64,000 bases of DNA, from the NCBI GenBank assembly GCA_030059665.1, contig JANVYR010000001.1, forward strand, positions 32,001 through 96,000. Reading direction: 5' to 3'. Shown here piece after piece: positions 52,303 through 57,997 of this stretch. Both the position numbers and the translations under genes were made by a program. Below the pieces are notes generated by a model. The model saw only the letters and a program-made list of their open reading frames with translations, ran no database searches and was not told the origin of the DNA. Origin of the DNA: Candidatus Calditenuis fumarioli. Lineage in GTDB: Archaea > Thermoproteota > Nitrososphaeria_A > Caldarchaeales > Calditenuaceae. Every line of letters starts with the position of its first letter. Position 1 is the first letter of the stretch.

Positions 52303-53652
52303 TTGCCGAGGGGAAAGCGATATGTGTGGTTCCCGGATCTGGACCTGGAGTTGAGAGTCTTCGCGGACCTGCAGATCCACTCCAGGTACTCGGGAGCCAC
52401 GTCGGGCAACATGAACCTGGACGAGCTGACGCACTACGCGGACCTGAAGGGGATAGACCTGCTCGGCACAGGGGACGCGCTACACCCGGCCTGGCTGAGG
52501 GAGCTGAGGGAGAACCTGGAGGAGGAGGCGCCGGGGATCTACCGGTACCGGCGTGGAGGGAGGGTCAGGTTCCTGGTCCAGACGGAGGTCGCGACGGTCC
52601 ACGAGCACGCGGGGAAGGTGAGACGGATCCACCACGTGATACTGATGAGGTCGCTGGAGGTCGCCGAGCAGCTCTCCTACGCCCTGAGAAGGTTCGGTGA
52701 CGTTTCCTCCGATGGGAGGCCAGTGCTGAACGTCCATCCCGCGGAGCTCGTGGACGTGGTGCTTTCCACCGACAGCAGGTCCTACCTCTTCCCAGCCCAC
52801 GCCTGGACTCCCTGGTGGTCCGTCTTCGGAGCGATAGGCGGGGTCGACAAAATCGAGGAGTGCTACGCCGACAGGTCGGACAGGATTCACGCCATCGAGA
52901 CCGGCCTCAGCAGCGACCCGCCGATGAACTGGAGGGTGAGCTGGCTGGACCGCTTCCTGCTGCTGAGCTCATCCGACGCGCACAGCCCTTACCCCTATCG
53001 GCTCGGCCGCGAGATGGTGGTCTTCGAGCTGGGGGAACTCAGCTACGAGGAGGTCCTCAGGGCCCTGACGAGGTATCCCGGCAACTCGAGGGTCGTGATG
53101 ACGGTGGAGGTCCCTCCGAGCTACGGGAAGTACCACTGGTCGGGCCACAGGAGGTGCGGTGTGGGGCCGCTCCCTCCTGAGAAGGCGAGGGCGCTGAACT
53201 ACAGGTGCCCCAGGTGCGGCAGGAAGCTCACGAAGGGCGTCGAGGACCGGGTCGAGGAGCTCGCCGACAGGCCGCCGGGTTACAGGCCCGAGAACGCGGT
53301 GGACTTCGTGTACGCGCTGCCGCTACAGGAGCTGATAGCGCTGTCGATGGGGGAGGACCCGACCGCCACTAACCTGATGTCGAAGAGGATCTGGGGCGAG
53401 TACGTGAGGCTGGTGAACGCCTTCGGCAGCGAGGTGGAGGTCCTCCTGAGGGCACCGGTCGAGAAGGTGGCCGAGATCGGTGGCCCTCTGCTCGGCAGAC
53501 TGATCTCGATGATGCGGAGGGGTCAGCTCCAGGTGATTCCGGGGTACGACGGCGTCTACGGCAGGCTAGTTCTTCCGGAGGACCTGAGACCGGGGAGGGC
53601 GAGGCGCAGGTCGAGGGGCCCAGCTGACGGCCAGCTCGACGCGTTCGTTTAG
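52303..53652 (+). CDS. Endonuclease Q family (PHP domain + Zn ribbon)
   Basis: ADLQIHS.YS, GTGD..HP.W, PAHAWTPW.S, ETGLSSDP.MN, SDAHS, GKYH..GHR.C, CP.CG..KGV..RV, PGYDG.YG; start may be 52324. Confidence 0.88.
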   Translation: MPRGKRYVWFPDLDLELRVFADLQIHSRYSGATSGNMNLDELTHYADLKGIDLLGTGDALHPAWLRELRENLEEEAPGIYRYRRGGRVRFLVQTEVATVHEHAGKVRRIHHVILMRSLEVAEQLSYALRRFGDVSSDGRPVLNVHPAELVDVVLSTDSRSYLFPAHAWTPWWSVFGAIGGVDKIEECYADRSDRIHAIETGLSSDPPMNWRVSWLDRFLLLSSSDAHSPYPYRLGREMVVFELGELSYEEVLRALTRYPGNSRVVMTVEVPPSYGKYHWSGHRRCGVGPLPPEKARALNYRCPRCGRKLTKGVEDRVEELADRPPGYRPENAVDFVYALPLQELIALSMGEDPTATNLMSKRIWGEYVRLVNAFGSEVEVLLRAPVEKVAEIGGPLLGRLISMMRRGQLQVIPGYDGVYGRLVLPEDLRPGRARRRSRGPADGQLDAFV

Positions 53653-55569: not shown

Positions 55570-55719
55570 GCTTGATCCATCACCACCGGATAGGGCTTAG
55601 CCCTGCCCGATCAGATGGAGGGCCGGTTATTAGCGTTTCTTCACGCTGCGGTCCCACGCGATCATCGGGTAGCACGGACTCTCAATTCCCATTCGCCGGA
55701 TCACGTTGCTATCAAATTC

Positions 55720-55824
55720 TGCCGGGGGTGGGATTCGAACCCACGACAACCGCGTCTCCCATCGAACCCGATTATGAGCGCGGCCCTGTGGCCGTGAGCC
55801 TCTGGCCAGCTGAGGTACCCCGGC
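55720..55824 (-). tRNA. Elongator tRNA-Met(CAU) with two introns (22/23 and 37/38)
   Basis: GCCGGGG/CCCCGGC, A73; D-stem CCTC/GAGG; intron 1 55788-55801 (GGCC:GGCC BHB helix); intron 2 55756-55772 (CTCA:TGGG helix); anticodon stem CCGCG/CGCGG. Confidence 0.92.
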
Positions 55825-55950
55825 CGATCAGGAGTTCCTCCGACCCTACTCATTAACTTACACTGGACCGAACTCCGACCACCAGCACGCGGAGCCGTGT
55901 TCGGGGCATGAGGAGTCGCCGCCTGGTCACGGCCCGGTGAAAGGCGCGCC

Positions 55951-57414
55951 TCAAGGAGCCCTCCTTTTCGGTGACAGCAGCTGCAAGATGAACGCTCCCT
56001 GCCCCGCAGCCAGCAACGCGCCGAAGGTCAGCAGAGCAGCAACGCCCTCGGAGCCGACGGGCAACGGATAAGCCCTGCGGGGCGCGCCGAGGGAACCCAT
56101 GAAGGCCATCGTGTAGAGGAGCCCGAGGGCCGCGACGGCCGTGAGCACTATGTGGGCGTATGCCAGCTTCGGGTTCTCCGGCCTCCCGAAGAGCAGCCTG
56201 TAGCTGTGGTAGAGCGCACCGATCCAGATCAGGGTCACGGCGATCAGGATCGTCATCAGGTGGGCCGTGGCCGCGTAGGTCCCGTGAAGCCTGAAGGCCC
56301 ATCCGATCGTGCCGAGCTGCATCGCGAGAAAACCGTCAGCTATGTAGACGCCGAAGCCGAGCATGGCCGCGAGGACCGCAGGCGTCAGCCGCAGGCCGAA
56401 AACGTAGGACGTTGCGAGGACGTTGAAGACGGAGAAGGCCGCACCGAACCCCGTCAGCCAGCTGGCGACCTGTCCCGTGTAGCTAAGCCCCTGGGGCTGG
56501 GAGGTGGGCATCGTGAACAGATGGTGGGGGAAGGCCATGATCGCTGCTGTGGAGTAGAAGACGATCGCGAAGAGCCCGAGCTTCTCGCTGAAGAGCGTCC
56601 TCGCCCTCTGCTCCTCCGAGGCCGTGTAGCGCGGGATCAGCCAGTAAACGGTTCCGAGCGCCATTATCCCCATGGCCTCCATCAGGTTGTGGGCGAATAT
56701 CCAGAACGGGTAGTTGAAGTTCATGGGTGTAAGAGCCCAACCGATGGAACCCAACGGGACGATGCCGACGAGCGCCAGGCCGATCGCGACCGCACCAACT
56801 GTGATCGCCGCACCGAGGGGAGGCAAGATGAAGACGTAAGGGAGCATCCCGGCCATCCCGGAGGGGTTGAGCGTTCCCATGAACCTCTCGAGGACGAGGG
56901 CCTCCTGCGTCTTGCCTCCGAAGACGAGCCGCGCCAGCGCAGCCGGGTAGAGGGCCACCACCACCGCGAGCACGAGAACCACTCCCCAGACGAAGACGGT
57001 CAACCCCTCCATCGACCAGAGGCCTTTGAAGACGCCGACCGCCGGCAGCGGGAACATCAGGGTGTAGCTGGTCCTGACGCCGAGGCCGAGGACAGACGCC
57101 GCTATCATCAGCATCCCCAGGTTCAGCAGGACGTATGATGCCTTGACCAGGAGACCCTTCACCGGTTTGCCGTAGCAGAATCCAGCCCTCAGCAGCGAGA
57201 GGCCCATCATCAGCTGGAAGAGGCCGCCGAAGGTCATGACGGTCCCGTGGAAGGTGAGAAGCGTGTTGTATTCCGGTATCCTCAGCAGACCGGTGGCGTG
57301 GGCCAGGACCATCAGCAGCCCAGCGGTGCCGCCGGCGAGGAACCAAGCCAGCGAGGTCAGCACCATCAGCCTCGGATACCTCGTCAGGTCCTCCAGTTTC
57401 ACGCCGGCCTCCAC
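55951..57414 (-). CDS. Heme-copper oxidase superfamily subunit I, B-family-related, NO-reductase-like active site
   Basis: 12-TM; FHG (helix II), FWIFAHNLME (helix VI), FPHH (helix VII), LHGTY..AHLM (helix X), PRR. Confidence 0.88.
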   Translation of the reverse strand: MEAGVKLEDLTRYPRLMVLTSLAWFLAGGTAGLLMVLAHATGLLRIPEYNTLLTFHGTVMTFGGLFQLMMGLSLLRAGFCYGKPVKGLLVKASYVLLNLGMLMIAASVLGLGVRTSYTLMFPLPAVGVFKGLWSMEGLTVFVWGVVLVLAVVVALYPAALARLVFGGKTQEALVLERFMGTLNPSGMAGMLPYVFILPPLGAAITVGAVAIGLALVGIVPLGSIGWALTPMNFNYPFWIFAHNLMEAMGIMALGTVYWLIPRYTASEEQRARTLFSEKLGLFAIVFYSTAAIMAFPHHLFTMPTSQPQGLSYTGQVASWLTGFGAAFSVFNVLATSYVFGLRLTPAVLAAMLGFGVYIADGFLAMQLGTIGWAFRLHGTYAATAHLMTILIAVTLIWIGALYHSYRLLFGRPENPKLAYAHIVLTAVAALGLLYTMAFMGSLGAPRRAYPLPVGSEGVAALLTFGALLAAGQGAFILQLLSPKRRAP

Positions 57415-57415
57415 G

Positions 57416-57967
57416 TCACACCACCCTGAACTTCGATGCCATCGCGGAGTGGCCGTCGCCGCAGTACTCGAGGCACCTCACCGTGTACTCTCCTGGTTCC
57501 CTCAGCTCGAGGACGATCTCCTCGGTCATACCAGGCATCAGCATGACCGTTGCGAGCAGCTCTCCCTTCGGCGAGTAGACGGCAAACGCGTGGATCGCAT
57601 CGAGGCTCCTGGCGACGAACTTGACGACCCCGGTTCTGAGCTCGTACGCGTCCAGCCTGTAGCCCCACATGAAGGCCTCCACCTGGACGACCTGCGTGGG
57701 CTCCTGTTGCGTCGAAACCGCTGTCTGGGCCTGGATCCAAGGTATCCACTGGATGCTGACCAGGTTGATCGCGGTCCACGTCAAGCCGATCGCTATCAAC
57801 CATACCACCTCCGCGGCCCTGATGAGGCGCTCGTTCTCCCGCAGTCCCTCCGCTGAAGCTCGCTTCCCCCTCCTCACCGAGAGCAGGAACAGCGCGACGA
57901 ATACCACTAGGAAAGGTGCCGTGAGGTAGACGAAGATCAGGACCGCGCCGGCACCTGTGCCCATCAT
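57416..57967 (-). CDS. Heme-copper oxidase subunit II (CuA)
   Basis: Two TM helices; A.MWGY, SLDAIHAF, CLEYCGDGHSAM. Confidence 0.9.
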   Translation of the reverse strand: MMGTGAGAVLIFVYLTAPFLVVFVALFLLSVRRGKRASAEGLRENERLIRAAEVVWLIAIGLTWTAINLVSIQWIPWIQAQTAVSTQQEPTQVVQVEAFMWGYRLDAYELRTGVVKFVARSLDAIHAFAVYSPKGELLATVMLMPGMTEEIVLELREPGEYTVRCLEYCGDGHSAMASKFRVV

Positions 57968-57987: not shown

Positions 57988-57997
57988 CAATATATAG
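57988..57997 (-). promoter_or_regulatory. TATA box for the HCO operon
   Basis: Minus-strand TATATATTGA 21-30 nt upstream of ATG 57967. Confidence 0.5.

What the first reader, a model, noticed from the sequence alone, without database searches (positions are those of the whole stretch)
55951..57967. CuA heme-copper oxidase with Glu replacing the cross-link Tyr and His/Met low-spin heme: probable novel-type NO reductase
Helix VI is H-N-L-M-E (His 56689-91, Glu 56677-79) rather than HPxxY, as in NO reductases, and there is no C-family Tyr at the usual spacing before FPHH in helix VII. Helix X is A-H-L-M (Met 56254-56) instead of HxH, implying His/Met ligation of the low-spin heme. Subunit II retains a complete CuA site. 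As I recall, this matches the B-family-derived 'nNOR' clade defined from sequence surveys, which I do not know to be biochemically characterised. Automated pipelines would mislabel it cytochrome c oxidase. It implies NO reduction or denitrification capacity in this archaeon.
Basis: partly seen in the sequence, partly recalled or inferred. Interest (0 to 1): 0.75.

Follow-up and report, generated by a model that had tools for sequence, protein, structure and literature searches.

The report
Archaeal nNOR-type nitric oxide reductase
A hot-spring archaeon carries a two-gene enzyme that looks like a respiratory oxygen reductase. Its altered active site matches the published but never purified "nNOR" family of probable nitric oxide reductases, and it would be the missing middle step between this genome's nitrite reductase and nitrous oxide reductase.

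Summary
Subunit I (55951-57414, minus strand, 487 aa) has H242-N-L-M-E246 where oxygen reductases have H-P-x-V-Y. It has H385-L-M387 where they have H-x-H. Subunit II (57416-57967) keeps a complete CuA site. These residues are invariant in all 27 full-length relatives examined (40-84 % identity, archaea and Chloroflexota).

The features are those by which Murali et al. 2024 (PMC11214002) describe the nNOR family: a CuA subunit, a cNOR-like 3 His + Glu site, and a His/Met low-spin heme. The family is known but uncharacterised, so this is a new member of a known kind.

New here:
- The genome also encodes a three-domain NirK and a clade II NosZ. It has no nirS, narG, cNOR or qNOR, so this gene is the only candidate for NO reduction to N2O.
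- Across 76 genomes of the order, nNOR occurs in 10. Seven of those have NosZ, against 6 of the 66 without nNOR.
- nNOR shares only the metal-ligating Glu with cNOR. It lacks cNOR's two other glutamates and has a family-only invariant Asp360.
- NCBI source names label relatives "cbb3-type cytochrome c oxidase subunit I".

NO reductase activity is inferred, not shown.

The parts
57416..57967 (-). Subunit II, 183 aa. Two N-terminal hydrophobic stretches (by eye) followed by a cupredoxin domain with a complete CuA site.
   Evidence: translation. COX2/CoxB matches (TIGR02866, E 2e-15). CuA ligands invariant in 7 relatives.
57440..57475 (-). CuA motif C165-L-E167-Y-C169-G-D-G-H173-S-A-M176. The first His ligand, H126, is at 57590-57592.
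55951..57414 (-). Subunit I, 487 aa, a heme-copper oxidoreductase fold of about a dozen long helices. No subunit III fusion.
   Evidence: PF00115, 125 bits. AlphaFold model, pLDDT 85.7, pTM 0.90; matches to all HCO families, Z 22-38.
57247..57249 (-). His56, helix II, first axial ligand of the low-spin heme.
   Evidence: Invariant. Aligned to the T-L-H-G His of caa3.
56677..56691 (-). Helix VI H242-N-L-M-E246. His242 is a ligand of the active-site metal. Glu246 sits at the cross-link Tyr position and aligns with the metal-ligating Glu of cNOR.
   Evidence: aligned to H-L-W-V-E of Sinorhizobium meliloti NorB.
56521..56526 (-). Helix VII His297-His298, the other two ligands of the active-site metal.
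56254..56262 (-). Helix X H385-L-M387. His385 is the proximal ligand of the high-spin heme. Met387 replaces the His that normally ligates the low-spin heme.
56335..56337 (-). Asp360, helix IX, invariant and specific to the family. All other HCO classes sampled have Gly or Ala here. It sits next to Gly361, which aligns with a residue that contacts the high-spin heme in bovine oxidase. Candidate second active-site carboxylate or proton donor (inferred).
   Evidence: The mapping to bovine G351/G352 uses the alignment plus my recollection of heme a3 contacts.
56422..56646 (-). Candidate cytoplasmic proton-path residues: Tyr257 (56644-56646), Ser/Thr328 (56431-56433), Asn331 (56422-56424). Ser328 aligns with the K-channel Lys of A-family enzymes.
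   Evidence: Y257 27/27, S/T328 27/27, N331 26/27. alignment. The equivalence to ba3 Y248/T312/T315 is from memory of ba3 numbering.
56074..56079 (-). Arg446-Arg447, the P-R-R motif that binds heme propionates in A/B-type enzymes. It is absent from cNOR NorB.
57989..57996 (-). TATATATT, 22-29 nt upstream of the subunit II ATG. Possible archaeal TATA box for a leaderless or short-leader transcript (inferred only).
   Evidence: sequence.

Best explanation
The two genes encode a member of the nNOR family, a CuA-containing heme-copper enzyme that most probably reduces nitric oxide to nitrous oxide (2 NO + 2 e- + 2 H+ -> N2O + H2O).

Proposed path, all steps inferred:
1. An extracytoplasmic donor, probably a membrane-anchored blue copper protein, reduces CuA in subunit II.
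2. Electrons pass to a low-spin heme ligated by His56 and Met387. The published estimate is that Met raises its potential by about 150 mV.
3. Electrons then reach the high-spin heme (His385) and a non-heme metal held by His242, His297, His298 and Glu246. That ligand set is the one that binds FeB in cNOR.
4. No Tyr is available for the His-Tyr cofactor that four-electron O2 reduction requires.
5. Conserved polar residues (Tyr257, Ser/Thr328, Asn331, perhaps Asp360) may bring protons from the cytoplasm, which would make the reaction electrogenic.

In this organism the enzyme would link NirK (NO2- to NO) to NosZ (N2O to N2). That gives a nitrite-to-N2 chain alongside an A-type oxygen reductase.
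For: Sequence evidence:
- Ligand substitutions are exact and invariant in 27 family members.
- Glu246 aligns with the metal-ligating Glu of S. meliloti NorB and with the cross-link Tyr of A-family oxidases.
- The CuA site is complete and invariant.
- The subunit II-subunit I gene pair is conserved in all 17 loci from public genomes.
- The family is a discrete clade. Profile scores run 818-353 bits, then drop to 137 bits. Clade support is SH-aLRT 100.
- The features match the published definition of nNOR (PMC11214002).

Context evidence:
- The genome has a 500-aa three-domain NirK, E 1e-140 to PDB 6hbe, and a clade II NosZ at 738 bits, above the curated cut-off.
- It has no nirS or narG match.
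- The only other PF00115 gene above threshold is an A-type oxidase with G-H-P-E-V-Y.
- In 76 genomes of the order, 7 of 10 nNOR-positive genomes have NosZ, against 6 of 66 nNOR-negative ones. Nine of 10 have NirK or NosZ. Co-occurrence with NosZ spans five genera.
- In a Pyrobaculum MAG a hemerythrin-domain gene follows nNOR, and in a Caldarchaeum MAG a sulfocyanin-like cupredoxin does. This genome has a 52 % identical homologue of that cupredoxin.
Against: - No nNOR has been purified or assayed. The function rests on active-site analogy and gene co-occurrence.
- The nNOR genes are not adjacent to nirK or nosZ here, nor in any of the 17 loci. The neighbours in this window are housekeeping genes.
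- The active site is not identical to cNOR. The positions of cNOR's second and third conserved glutamates hold Gly249/Ile250 and Thr321.
- The identity of the non-heme metal (Fe or Cu) is unknown.
- Three nNOR-positive genomes lack NosZ and four lack NirK, although several of these are incomplete.
- Related genomes are not independent, so the Fisher p values (7e-5 and 0.017) overstate the association.
- The organism's lineage is described as aerobic, so NO detoxification rather than respiration is possible.
Confidence: 0.72

Rival explanations
1. It is an NO-detoxifying enzyme of an aerobe rather than a respiratory one. The chemistry is the same (NO to N2O), but it serves to remove NO made by its own NirK or by neighbouring denitrifiers, and contributes little to energy conservation.
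For: - The genome has an A-type oxygen reductase, and relatives are described as aerobic (PMC12979851).
- There is no nitrate reductase.
- The nNOR operon sits among housekeeping genes with no denitrification regulator.
- Four of 10 nNOR-positive genomes lack NirK.
Against: - Strong co-occurrence with NosZ (7 of 10 against 6 of 66) suggests a chain in which the product is used.
- Conserved polar residues at K-channel-like positions and the channel reported for the family (PMC11214002) suggest coupling to the membrane potential.
Confidence: 0.15
2. It is an oxygen reductase that works without the His-Tyr cofactor, for example a low-turnover or high-affinity oxidase, with Glu246 playing another role.
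For: - The scaffold is A/B-like. It keeps the P-R-R motif and the CuA subunit, and its best PDB matches are cytochrome c oxidases.
- cNOR-type sites are known to reduce O2 slowly (established knowledge).
Against: - All characterised heme-copper O2 reductases need the redox-active Tyr. None is present at the helix VI or helix VII positions.
- The 3 His + Glu set is the cNOR/qNOR FeB site.
- The genome already has a canonical A-type oxidase.
- The co-occurrence is with N-oxide enzymes.
Confidence: 0.06
3. It catalyses a different N-oxide or small-molecule reaction, such as NO dismutation or N2O reduction. Such reactions have been proposed for other divergent heme-copper clades.
For: - The same paper proposes NOD and an N2O-reducing family among NOR relatives.
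- nNOR has family-only residues of unknown role: Asp360, Asn243, Trp319, Gln366.
- It lacks two of cNOR's three glutamates.
Against: - The intact CuA and low-spin heme electron-input path argues against dismutation, which needs no electrons.
- NosZ is already present for N2O.
- No positive evidence exists for any alternative substrate.
Confidence: 0.05

Closest known systems
nNOR family of heme-copper oxidoreductases (Murali, Hemp, Gennis et al. 2024, PMC11214002; first named in bioRxiv 10.1101/592808)
   Same: CuA subunit II. Helix VI His-x3-Glu giving a cNOR-like 3 His + Glu site. His/Met low-spin heme. Conserved polar residues at a K-channel-like position. [quoted passage not shown]
   Different: Nothing tested here departs from the published description. 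I could not place this sequence in a tree with the paper's own reference sequences, because its datasets are not held.
cNOR (NorCB; Pseudomonas aeruginosa structure 3O0R, Roseobacter denitrificans 4XYD, S. meliloti NorB used here)
   Same: The His-x3-Glu on helix VI aligns residue for residue. The HH pair and the proximal His are the same. There is no cross-link Tyr. Same overall fold (Z 32.9 to 4xyd).
   Different: - The electron-entry subunit is a CuA cupredoxin, not the cytochrome c NorC.
- The low-spin heme is His/Met, not bis-His.
- cNOR's other two conserved glutamates are absent (Gly249/Ile250 and Thr321 at those positions).
- nNOR keeps the P-R-R propionate motif that NorB lacks, and has Asp360 where NorB has Ala.
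- The resemblance is convergent, not membership.
sNOR/bNOR-type enzymes (helix VI His-x3-Asn)
   Same: These are the nearest non-family hits to the nNOR profile (137-80 bits). They keep the P-R-R motif and lack the Ser found at nNOR position 325 in B-like sequences.
   Different: They have Asn, not Glu, at the Tyr position, bis-His on the low-spin heme, and Gly at position 360. They form a separate clade (SH-aLRT 99).
eNOR (characterised from Rhodothermus marinus; an eNOR-like gene found here on Thermus thermophilus plasmid NZ_AP025614.1)
   Same: A CuA-type, two-subunit, B-family-derived NOR. Some members also replace the low-spin heme His, with Lys (H-F-K in the Thermus gene). The Thermus gene lies 1.7 kb from a three-domain NirK 54 % identical to this archaeon's NirK.
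   Different: Helix VI reads H-G-A-Q-Q (Gln, not Glu). The helix X substitution is Lys, not Met.
B-family oxygen reductase (Thermus thermophilus ba3, 1EHK/3EH3)
   Same: Fold (Z 30.9). CuA subunit. Tyr257 and Ser/Thr328 at positions I recall as ba3 Y248 and T312. A single candidate proton path.
   Different: No cross-link Tyr, and a Met heme ligand. Subunit II appears to have two N-terminal hydrophobic stretches rather than one. Sequence and fold scores to ba3 are not higher than to A-family enzymes.

Membership tests
nNOR (Murali et al. 2024) | Heme-copper oxidoreductase subunit I with the canonical helix II, VI, VII and X ligand positions | tested here: met
   PF00115 at 125 bits. Model pLDDT 85.7. 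Z 31-38 to A, B and C family oxidases and cNOR. Ligand columns aligned.
nNOR (Murali et al. 2024) | No Tyr for the His-Tyr cofactor; active-site residues as in cNOR/qNOR (three His plus Glu) | tested here: met
   H242-x3-E246, H297, H298. E246 aligns with the Glu of S. meliloti NorB H-L-W-V-E and with Tyr244 of A-family oxidases. Ala291 sits at the C-family Tyr position.
nNOR (Murali et al. 2024) | Low-spin heme ligated by His and Met | tested here: met
   By alignment only. M387 occupies the second His of H-x-H in 27 of 27 members, against His in 40 of 41 other classed HCOs. Actual ligation was not observed.
nNOR (Murali et al. 2024) | CuA-containing subunit II encoded with subunit I | tested here: met
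   H126, C165, E167, C169, H173 and M176 invariant. The gene pair is conserved in 17 of 17 loci.
nNOR (Murali et al. 2024) | Phylogenetic position near the B-family and sNOR, far from cNOR/qNOR | tested here: inconclusive
   The nearest non-members are His-x3-Asn and H-P-[VI]-V-Y sequences, and the nNOR clade has SH-aLRT 100. The P-R-R motif is kept, unlike NorB. However, no named references were in the tree, and PDB profile and fold scores slightly favour A-family enzymes over ba3.
nNOR (Murali et al. 2024) | Conserved proton channel from the cytoplasmic side | tested here: inconclusive
   Y257, S/T328, N331 and T335 are conserved, and S328 aligns with the K-channel Lys of A-family enzymes. 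No coordinates were available to trace a path.
nNOR (Murali et al. 2024) | NO reductase activity | not testable with these tools
   This is only predicted for the family in the literature.
cNOR (NorCB) | Cytochrome c subunit NorC as electron entry; bis-His low-spin heme; three conserved glutamates (P. aeruginosa E211, E215, E280) | tested here: not met
   The partner is a CuA cupredoxin. Met387 replaces the His. Only the first Glu is present; Gly249/Ile250 and Thr321 sit at the other two positions.
B-family (ba3-type) oxygen reductase | His-Tyr cross-link on helix VI (H-P-x-V-Y) | tested here: not met
   Glu246 is at the Tyr position in all members.
sNOR/bNOR | Asn at the helix VI Tyr position (His-x3-Asn) with a bis-His low-spin heme | tested here: not met
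   Glu246 and Met387. Separate clade.

The most novel reading that the evidence does not exclude
nNOR is an energy-conserving (electrogenic, possibly proton-pumping) NO reductase. Its chemistry differs from cNOR: a high-potential His/Met heme feeds an FeB site that has a single ligating Glu. The family-only buried Asp360 on helix IX replaces cNOR's Glu215/Glu280 as terminal proton donor, fed from the cytoplasm through Tyr257-Ser328-Asn331. If so, thermophilic archaea and Chloroflexota would gain membrane potential from the NO step of denitrification. The enzyme would also be a compact, thermostable two-subunit model for how oxygen-reductase scaffolds were converted to NO reduction.
Probability: 0.3. 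Interest if true: 0.7.

Novelty: new member of a known kind. Interest (0 to 1): 0.42.

Why it matters
Papers on Caldarchaeales (Aigarchaeota) state that these archaea have nirK and/or nosZ but no identifiable NO reductase. One invokes abiotic NO reduction instead (PMC10547907; PMC9270275).

Recognising nNOR, and a gNOR-like enzyme in sister genomes, closes that gap for part of the order. It predicts nitrite-to-N2 denitrification in this genome. It also shows why routine annotation ('cbb3-type cytochrome c oxidase subunit I') hides N2O-producing capacity in hot springs.

The gene is a good expression target for the first biochemical test of the nNOR family. It is a small two-subunit enzyme from a thermophile, with clear mutational targets (E246, M387, D360). 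That test bears on whether NO reduction can be coupled to energy conservation.

Tried and rejected
- A single-sequence phmmer search of subunit I against PDB sequences found nothing. Only the family profile reached A-family oxidases, and neither reached ba3 or cNOR.
- Foldseek and VIA-align matched every HCO family at similar scores. The fold therefore cannot decide between A-family and B-family ancestry.
- hhalign of the family profile against a single NorB sequence gave a spurious 41-column alignment, which I discarded. I replaced it with hmmalign to a profile built from the 60-sequence HCO alignment.
- The supplementary datasets of PMC11214002 and PMC12979851, which would list nNOR-bearing taxa and reference sequences, are not held. 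A tree with named nNOR references could not be made.
- Flanking genes were examined in this window and in six other loci. They gave no denitrification genes apart from one cupredoxin and one hemerythrin gene.
- I tried to show insertion or deletion at the locus by comparing same-genus genomes that lack nNOR. Synteny ends at the FttA gene, so this was uninformative.
- ARAGORN found no tRNA in the 380-nt spacer downstream of subunit I, although a tRNA-like gene is visible there.
- No complex prediction was run. Subunit I with subunit II is a textbook pair, and a transient cupredoxin contact is unlikely to be informative.
Full report
**Anatomy**

The minus strand of 55951-57967 holds two tightly coupled genes.
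- Subunit II is 183 aa (57416-57967).
- Subunit I is 487 aa (55951-57414), and its GTG start lies one base after the subunit II stop.
- A TATATATT box sits 22-29 nt upstream of the subunit II ATG.

Pfam and NCBIfam recognise the pair only weakly. Subunit I scores 125 bits on COX1, and 65 bits on CtaD against a cut-off of 671. Subunit II scores 57 bits on CoxB. A single-sequence search found no solved structure. An AlphaFold model built on 19 relatives is confident (pLDDT 85.7, pTM 0.90). It matches every heme-copper family: A-type at Z 35-38, cNOR 32.9, cbb3 32.5, ba3 30.9, qNOR 22.

**The observation**

A profile of the family aligns to A-family oxidases as follows:
- H242-N-L-M-E246 lies on H-P-E-V-Y.
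- H297-H298 lies on the CuB His pair.
- H385-L-M387 lies on H376-F-H378 (bovine numbering).
- H56 lies on the helix II heme ligand.

Glu therefore takes the place of the cross-link Tyr, and Met the place of the second low-spin heme ligand. The C-family Tyr position, six residues before HH, is Ala291.

The other invariant histidines are unlikely to supply the missing heme ligand. H377 aligns with the Mg-site His of A-type enzymes, in the outer loop. H421 aligns with bovine H413, near the inner surface. This is an inference from the alignment and from known structures.

Subunit II has the full CuA set: H126, C165, E167, C169, H173, M176.

**Is it a family trait?**

The word-index search found 27 relatives at E 1e-77 or better. 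An exhaustive profile search of 1.84 billion cluster representatives found only 13 hits at or below E 1e-30. Family members score 818-353 bits, and the next protein scores 137 bits.

All 27 full-length members carry both Glu246 and Met387. Of the other classed sequences, 19 have His-x3-Asn and 22 have His-x3-Tyr. At position 387, all but one have His.

In a maximum-likelihood tree the Glu/Met sequences form one clade (SH-aLRT 100) on a long stem. The His-x3-Asn sequences form another (SH-aLRT 99), next to H-P-V-V-Y sequences. The tree has no named references and was built from the best hits to the nNOR profile. It shows that the clade is coherent, but it does not show the clade's origin.

**What is known**

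Murali et al. 2024 (PMC11214002) describe nNOR as follows:
- It is related to the B-family and has a CuA subunit.
[quoted passage not shown] - It has a conserved proton channel.
- They count it in 6 NCBI genomes, 32 GTDB genomes and 289 IMG metagenomes.

In that paper only eNOR and bNOR have been assayed. An earlier preprint (10.1101/592808) says nNOR and sNOR are close relatives. That agrees with my finding that His-x3-Asn enzymes are the nearest non-members. I found no later biochemical work on nNOR.

**Comparison with cNOR**

I fetched NorB from S. meliloti pSymA and aligned it, together with representatives of the other classes, to a profile of 60 diverse HCOs.
- nNOR F-A-H-N-L-M-E lines up with NorB V-V-H-L-W-V-E, so Glu246 corresponds to the FeB-ligating Glu.
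- NorB's next Glu (E215 in P. aeruginosa numbering) falls at Gly249/Ile250.
- NorB's helix VIII Glu (E280) falls at Thr321.
- nNOR keeps the P-R-R propionate motif of A/B-type enzymes, which NorB lacks.
- nNOR has an invariant Asp360 on helix IX where every other class has Gly or Ala.

Asp360 neighbours Gly361. Through the alignment, Gly361 corresponds to bovine Gly352. I recall Gly352 as a heme a3 contact.

The resemblance to cNOR is therefore limited to the metal ligand set and is convergent. Asp360 is a candidate substitute for the missing carboxylates; this is inferred.

Conserved Tyr257, Ser/Thr328 and Asn331 are plausible members of a K-channel-like proton path. Ser/Thr328 aligns with the K-channel Lys. 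At position 325, nNOR and His-x3-Asn enzymes have Ala where B-like sequences have Ser. This fits the paper's remark that sNOR lacks that Ser and that the nNOR and sNOR channels differ from the B-type one.

**Genomic context**

Neighbours in the window are housekeeping genes: FttA/aCPSF1, CysRS, TFB, CBS and V4R proteins, aconitase. The genome is 1.57 Mb in 3 contigs, 91 % complete. It contains:
- an A-type oxidase with G-H-P-E-V-Y fused to subunit III;
- a clade II NosZ (738 bits);
- a 500-aa three-domain NirK, E 1e-140 to PDB 6hbe (which I recall as the Thermus scotoductus enzyme), followed by an SCO1/SenC gene.

It has no nirS, no narG, and no other PF00115 gene above threshold. nNOR is thus the only candidate for the NO-to-N2O step.

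**Distribution**

A scan of 185,579 species genomes found nNOR only in thermophile genomes:
- Calditenuaceae and Caldarchaeum MAGs;
- two Pyrobaculum MAGs, one of them frameshifted;
- Thermoflexus, Thermomicrobium and other Chloroflexota.

A Halobacteria MAG also carries one. The subunit II-subunit I pair is conserved in all 17 loci.

Counts across 76 genomes of the order:

| Feature | Genomes |
|---|---|
| nNOR present | 10 |
| NosZ present | 13 |
| This NirK type present | 20 |
| nNOR-positive with NosZ | 7 of 10 |
| nNOR-negative with NosZ | 6 of 66 |
| nNOR-positive with NirK or NosZ | 9 of 10 |
| All three genes | 4 |

The nNOR-NosZ co-occurrence spans five genera. Related genomes are not independent, so this is supportive rather than statistical proof.

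Three of the six NosZ-positive, nNOR-negative genomes carry a third HCO type. It has Asp in place of the helix VI His (G-L-D-L-I-A-D-G). In the one case read, its subunit II lacks the CuA cysteines. These are the published hallmarks of gNOR.

The Caldarchaeales literature states that no NO reductase could be identified in these archaea.

**Side evidence on partners**

A sulfocyanin-like cupredoxin gene follows nNOR directly in one Caldarchaeum MAG, and this genome has a 52 % identical homologue. A hemerythrin-domain gene follows nNOR in a Pyrobaculum MAG.

On a Thermus thermophilus plasmid, a NirK 54 % identical to this archaeon's lies 1.7 kb from an eNOR-like CuA enzyme with a His/Lys heme motif. 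This shows the same NirK type teamed with a B-derived NOR family that has been validated elsewhere.

**Verdict**

- Membership of nNOR is about 95 % likely, on features.
- NO reduction as the catalysed reaction is about 85-90 % likely. That splits into a respiratory role (about 72 %) and a mainly detoxifying role (about 15 %).
- The metal identity, the proton path and the role of Asp360 are inferred.

The family is published, so novelty is modest. The value lies in the pathway context, the correction of annotation, and a well-defined target for the first biochemical test.

Noticed in passing
window 55715-55830 (-): A tRNA-like gene lies in the spacer between subunit I and FttA. It has an acceptor stem, D-arm, a C-T-C-A-T-A-A anticodon loop (CAT) and a G-G-T-T-C-G-A-A-T-C-C T-arm, interrupted by extra sequence that is probably an intron. 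ARAGORN reports nothing. Rfam gives only a partial tRNA-clan (tmRNA model) hit at 55727-55772.
   Followed up: partly
L043 166-2348 (G029:C1), L044, L045: Other Caldarchaeales genomes carry a gNOR-like heme-copper enzyme. Helix VI reads G-L-D-L-I-A-D-G, with Asp in place of the metal-ligating His. Subunit II (checked in L043 only) reads S-T-E-Y-S-G-P-Q-H and has no CuA cysteines. Similar-scoring hits occur in 16 of 76 genomes, including three that are NosZ-positive and nNOR-negative. It is absent from this genome.
   Followed up: partly
L055 8503-13311 (Thermus thermophilus plasmid NZ_AP025614.1): An eNOR-like enzyme (helix VI H-G-A-Q-Q, helix X H-F-K, CuA subunit II, plus a 41-aa ORF) is annotated 'cbb3-type cytochrome c oxidase subunit I'. 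It lies 1.7 kb from a three-domain NirK annotated 'multicopper oxidase domain-containing protein'. Rrf2, DUF542 and hemerythrin genes are nearby.
   Followed up: partly
G000:C2:320950-323050 (L004 1345-3442): A three-domain NirK (two NirK domains plus a C-terminal cupredoxin) scores below the TIGR02376 cut-off (152 against 296 bits) but hits PDB 6hbe at E 1e-140. An SCO1/SenC copper chaperone gene overlaps its end.
   Followed up: yes
L034 9449-9916; G000:C3:76671-77024: A membrane-anchored sulfocyanin-like blue copper protein is encoded directly after nNOR subunit I in a Caldarchaeum MAG. A 52 % identical homologue sits elsewhere in this genome. It is a candidate electron donor.
   Followed up: partly
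window 52303-53652 (+): A 449-aa ORF with coding-like GC3 has no Pfam match. It is conserved at 80-82 % identity next to FttA in two same-genus genomes.
   Followed up: no
L033 8001-9448 (G034:C1) and L042 8001-9369: nNOR subunit I is interrupted in two MAGs: one frameshift in a Nitrososphaerota MAG, and several in a Pyrobaculum MAG. These are either decay or assembly errors.
   Followed up: no
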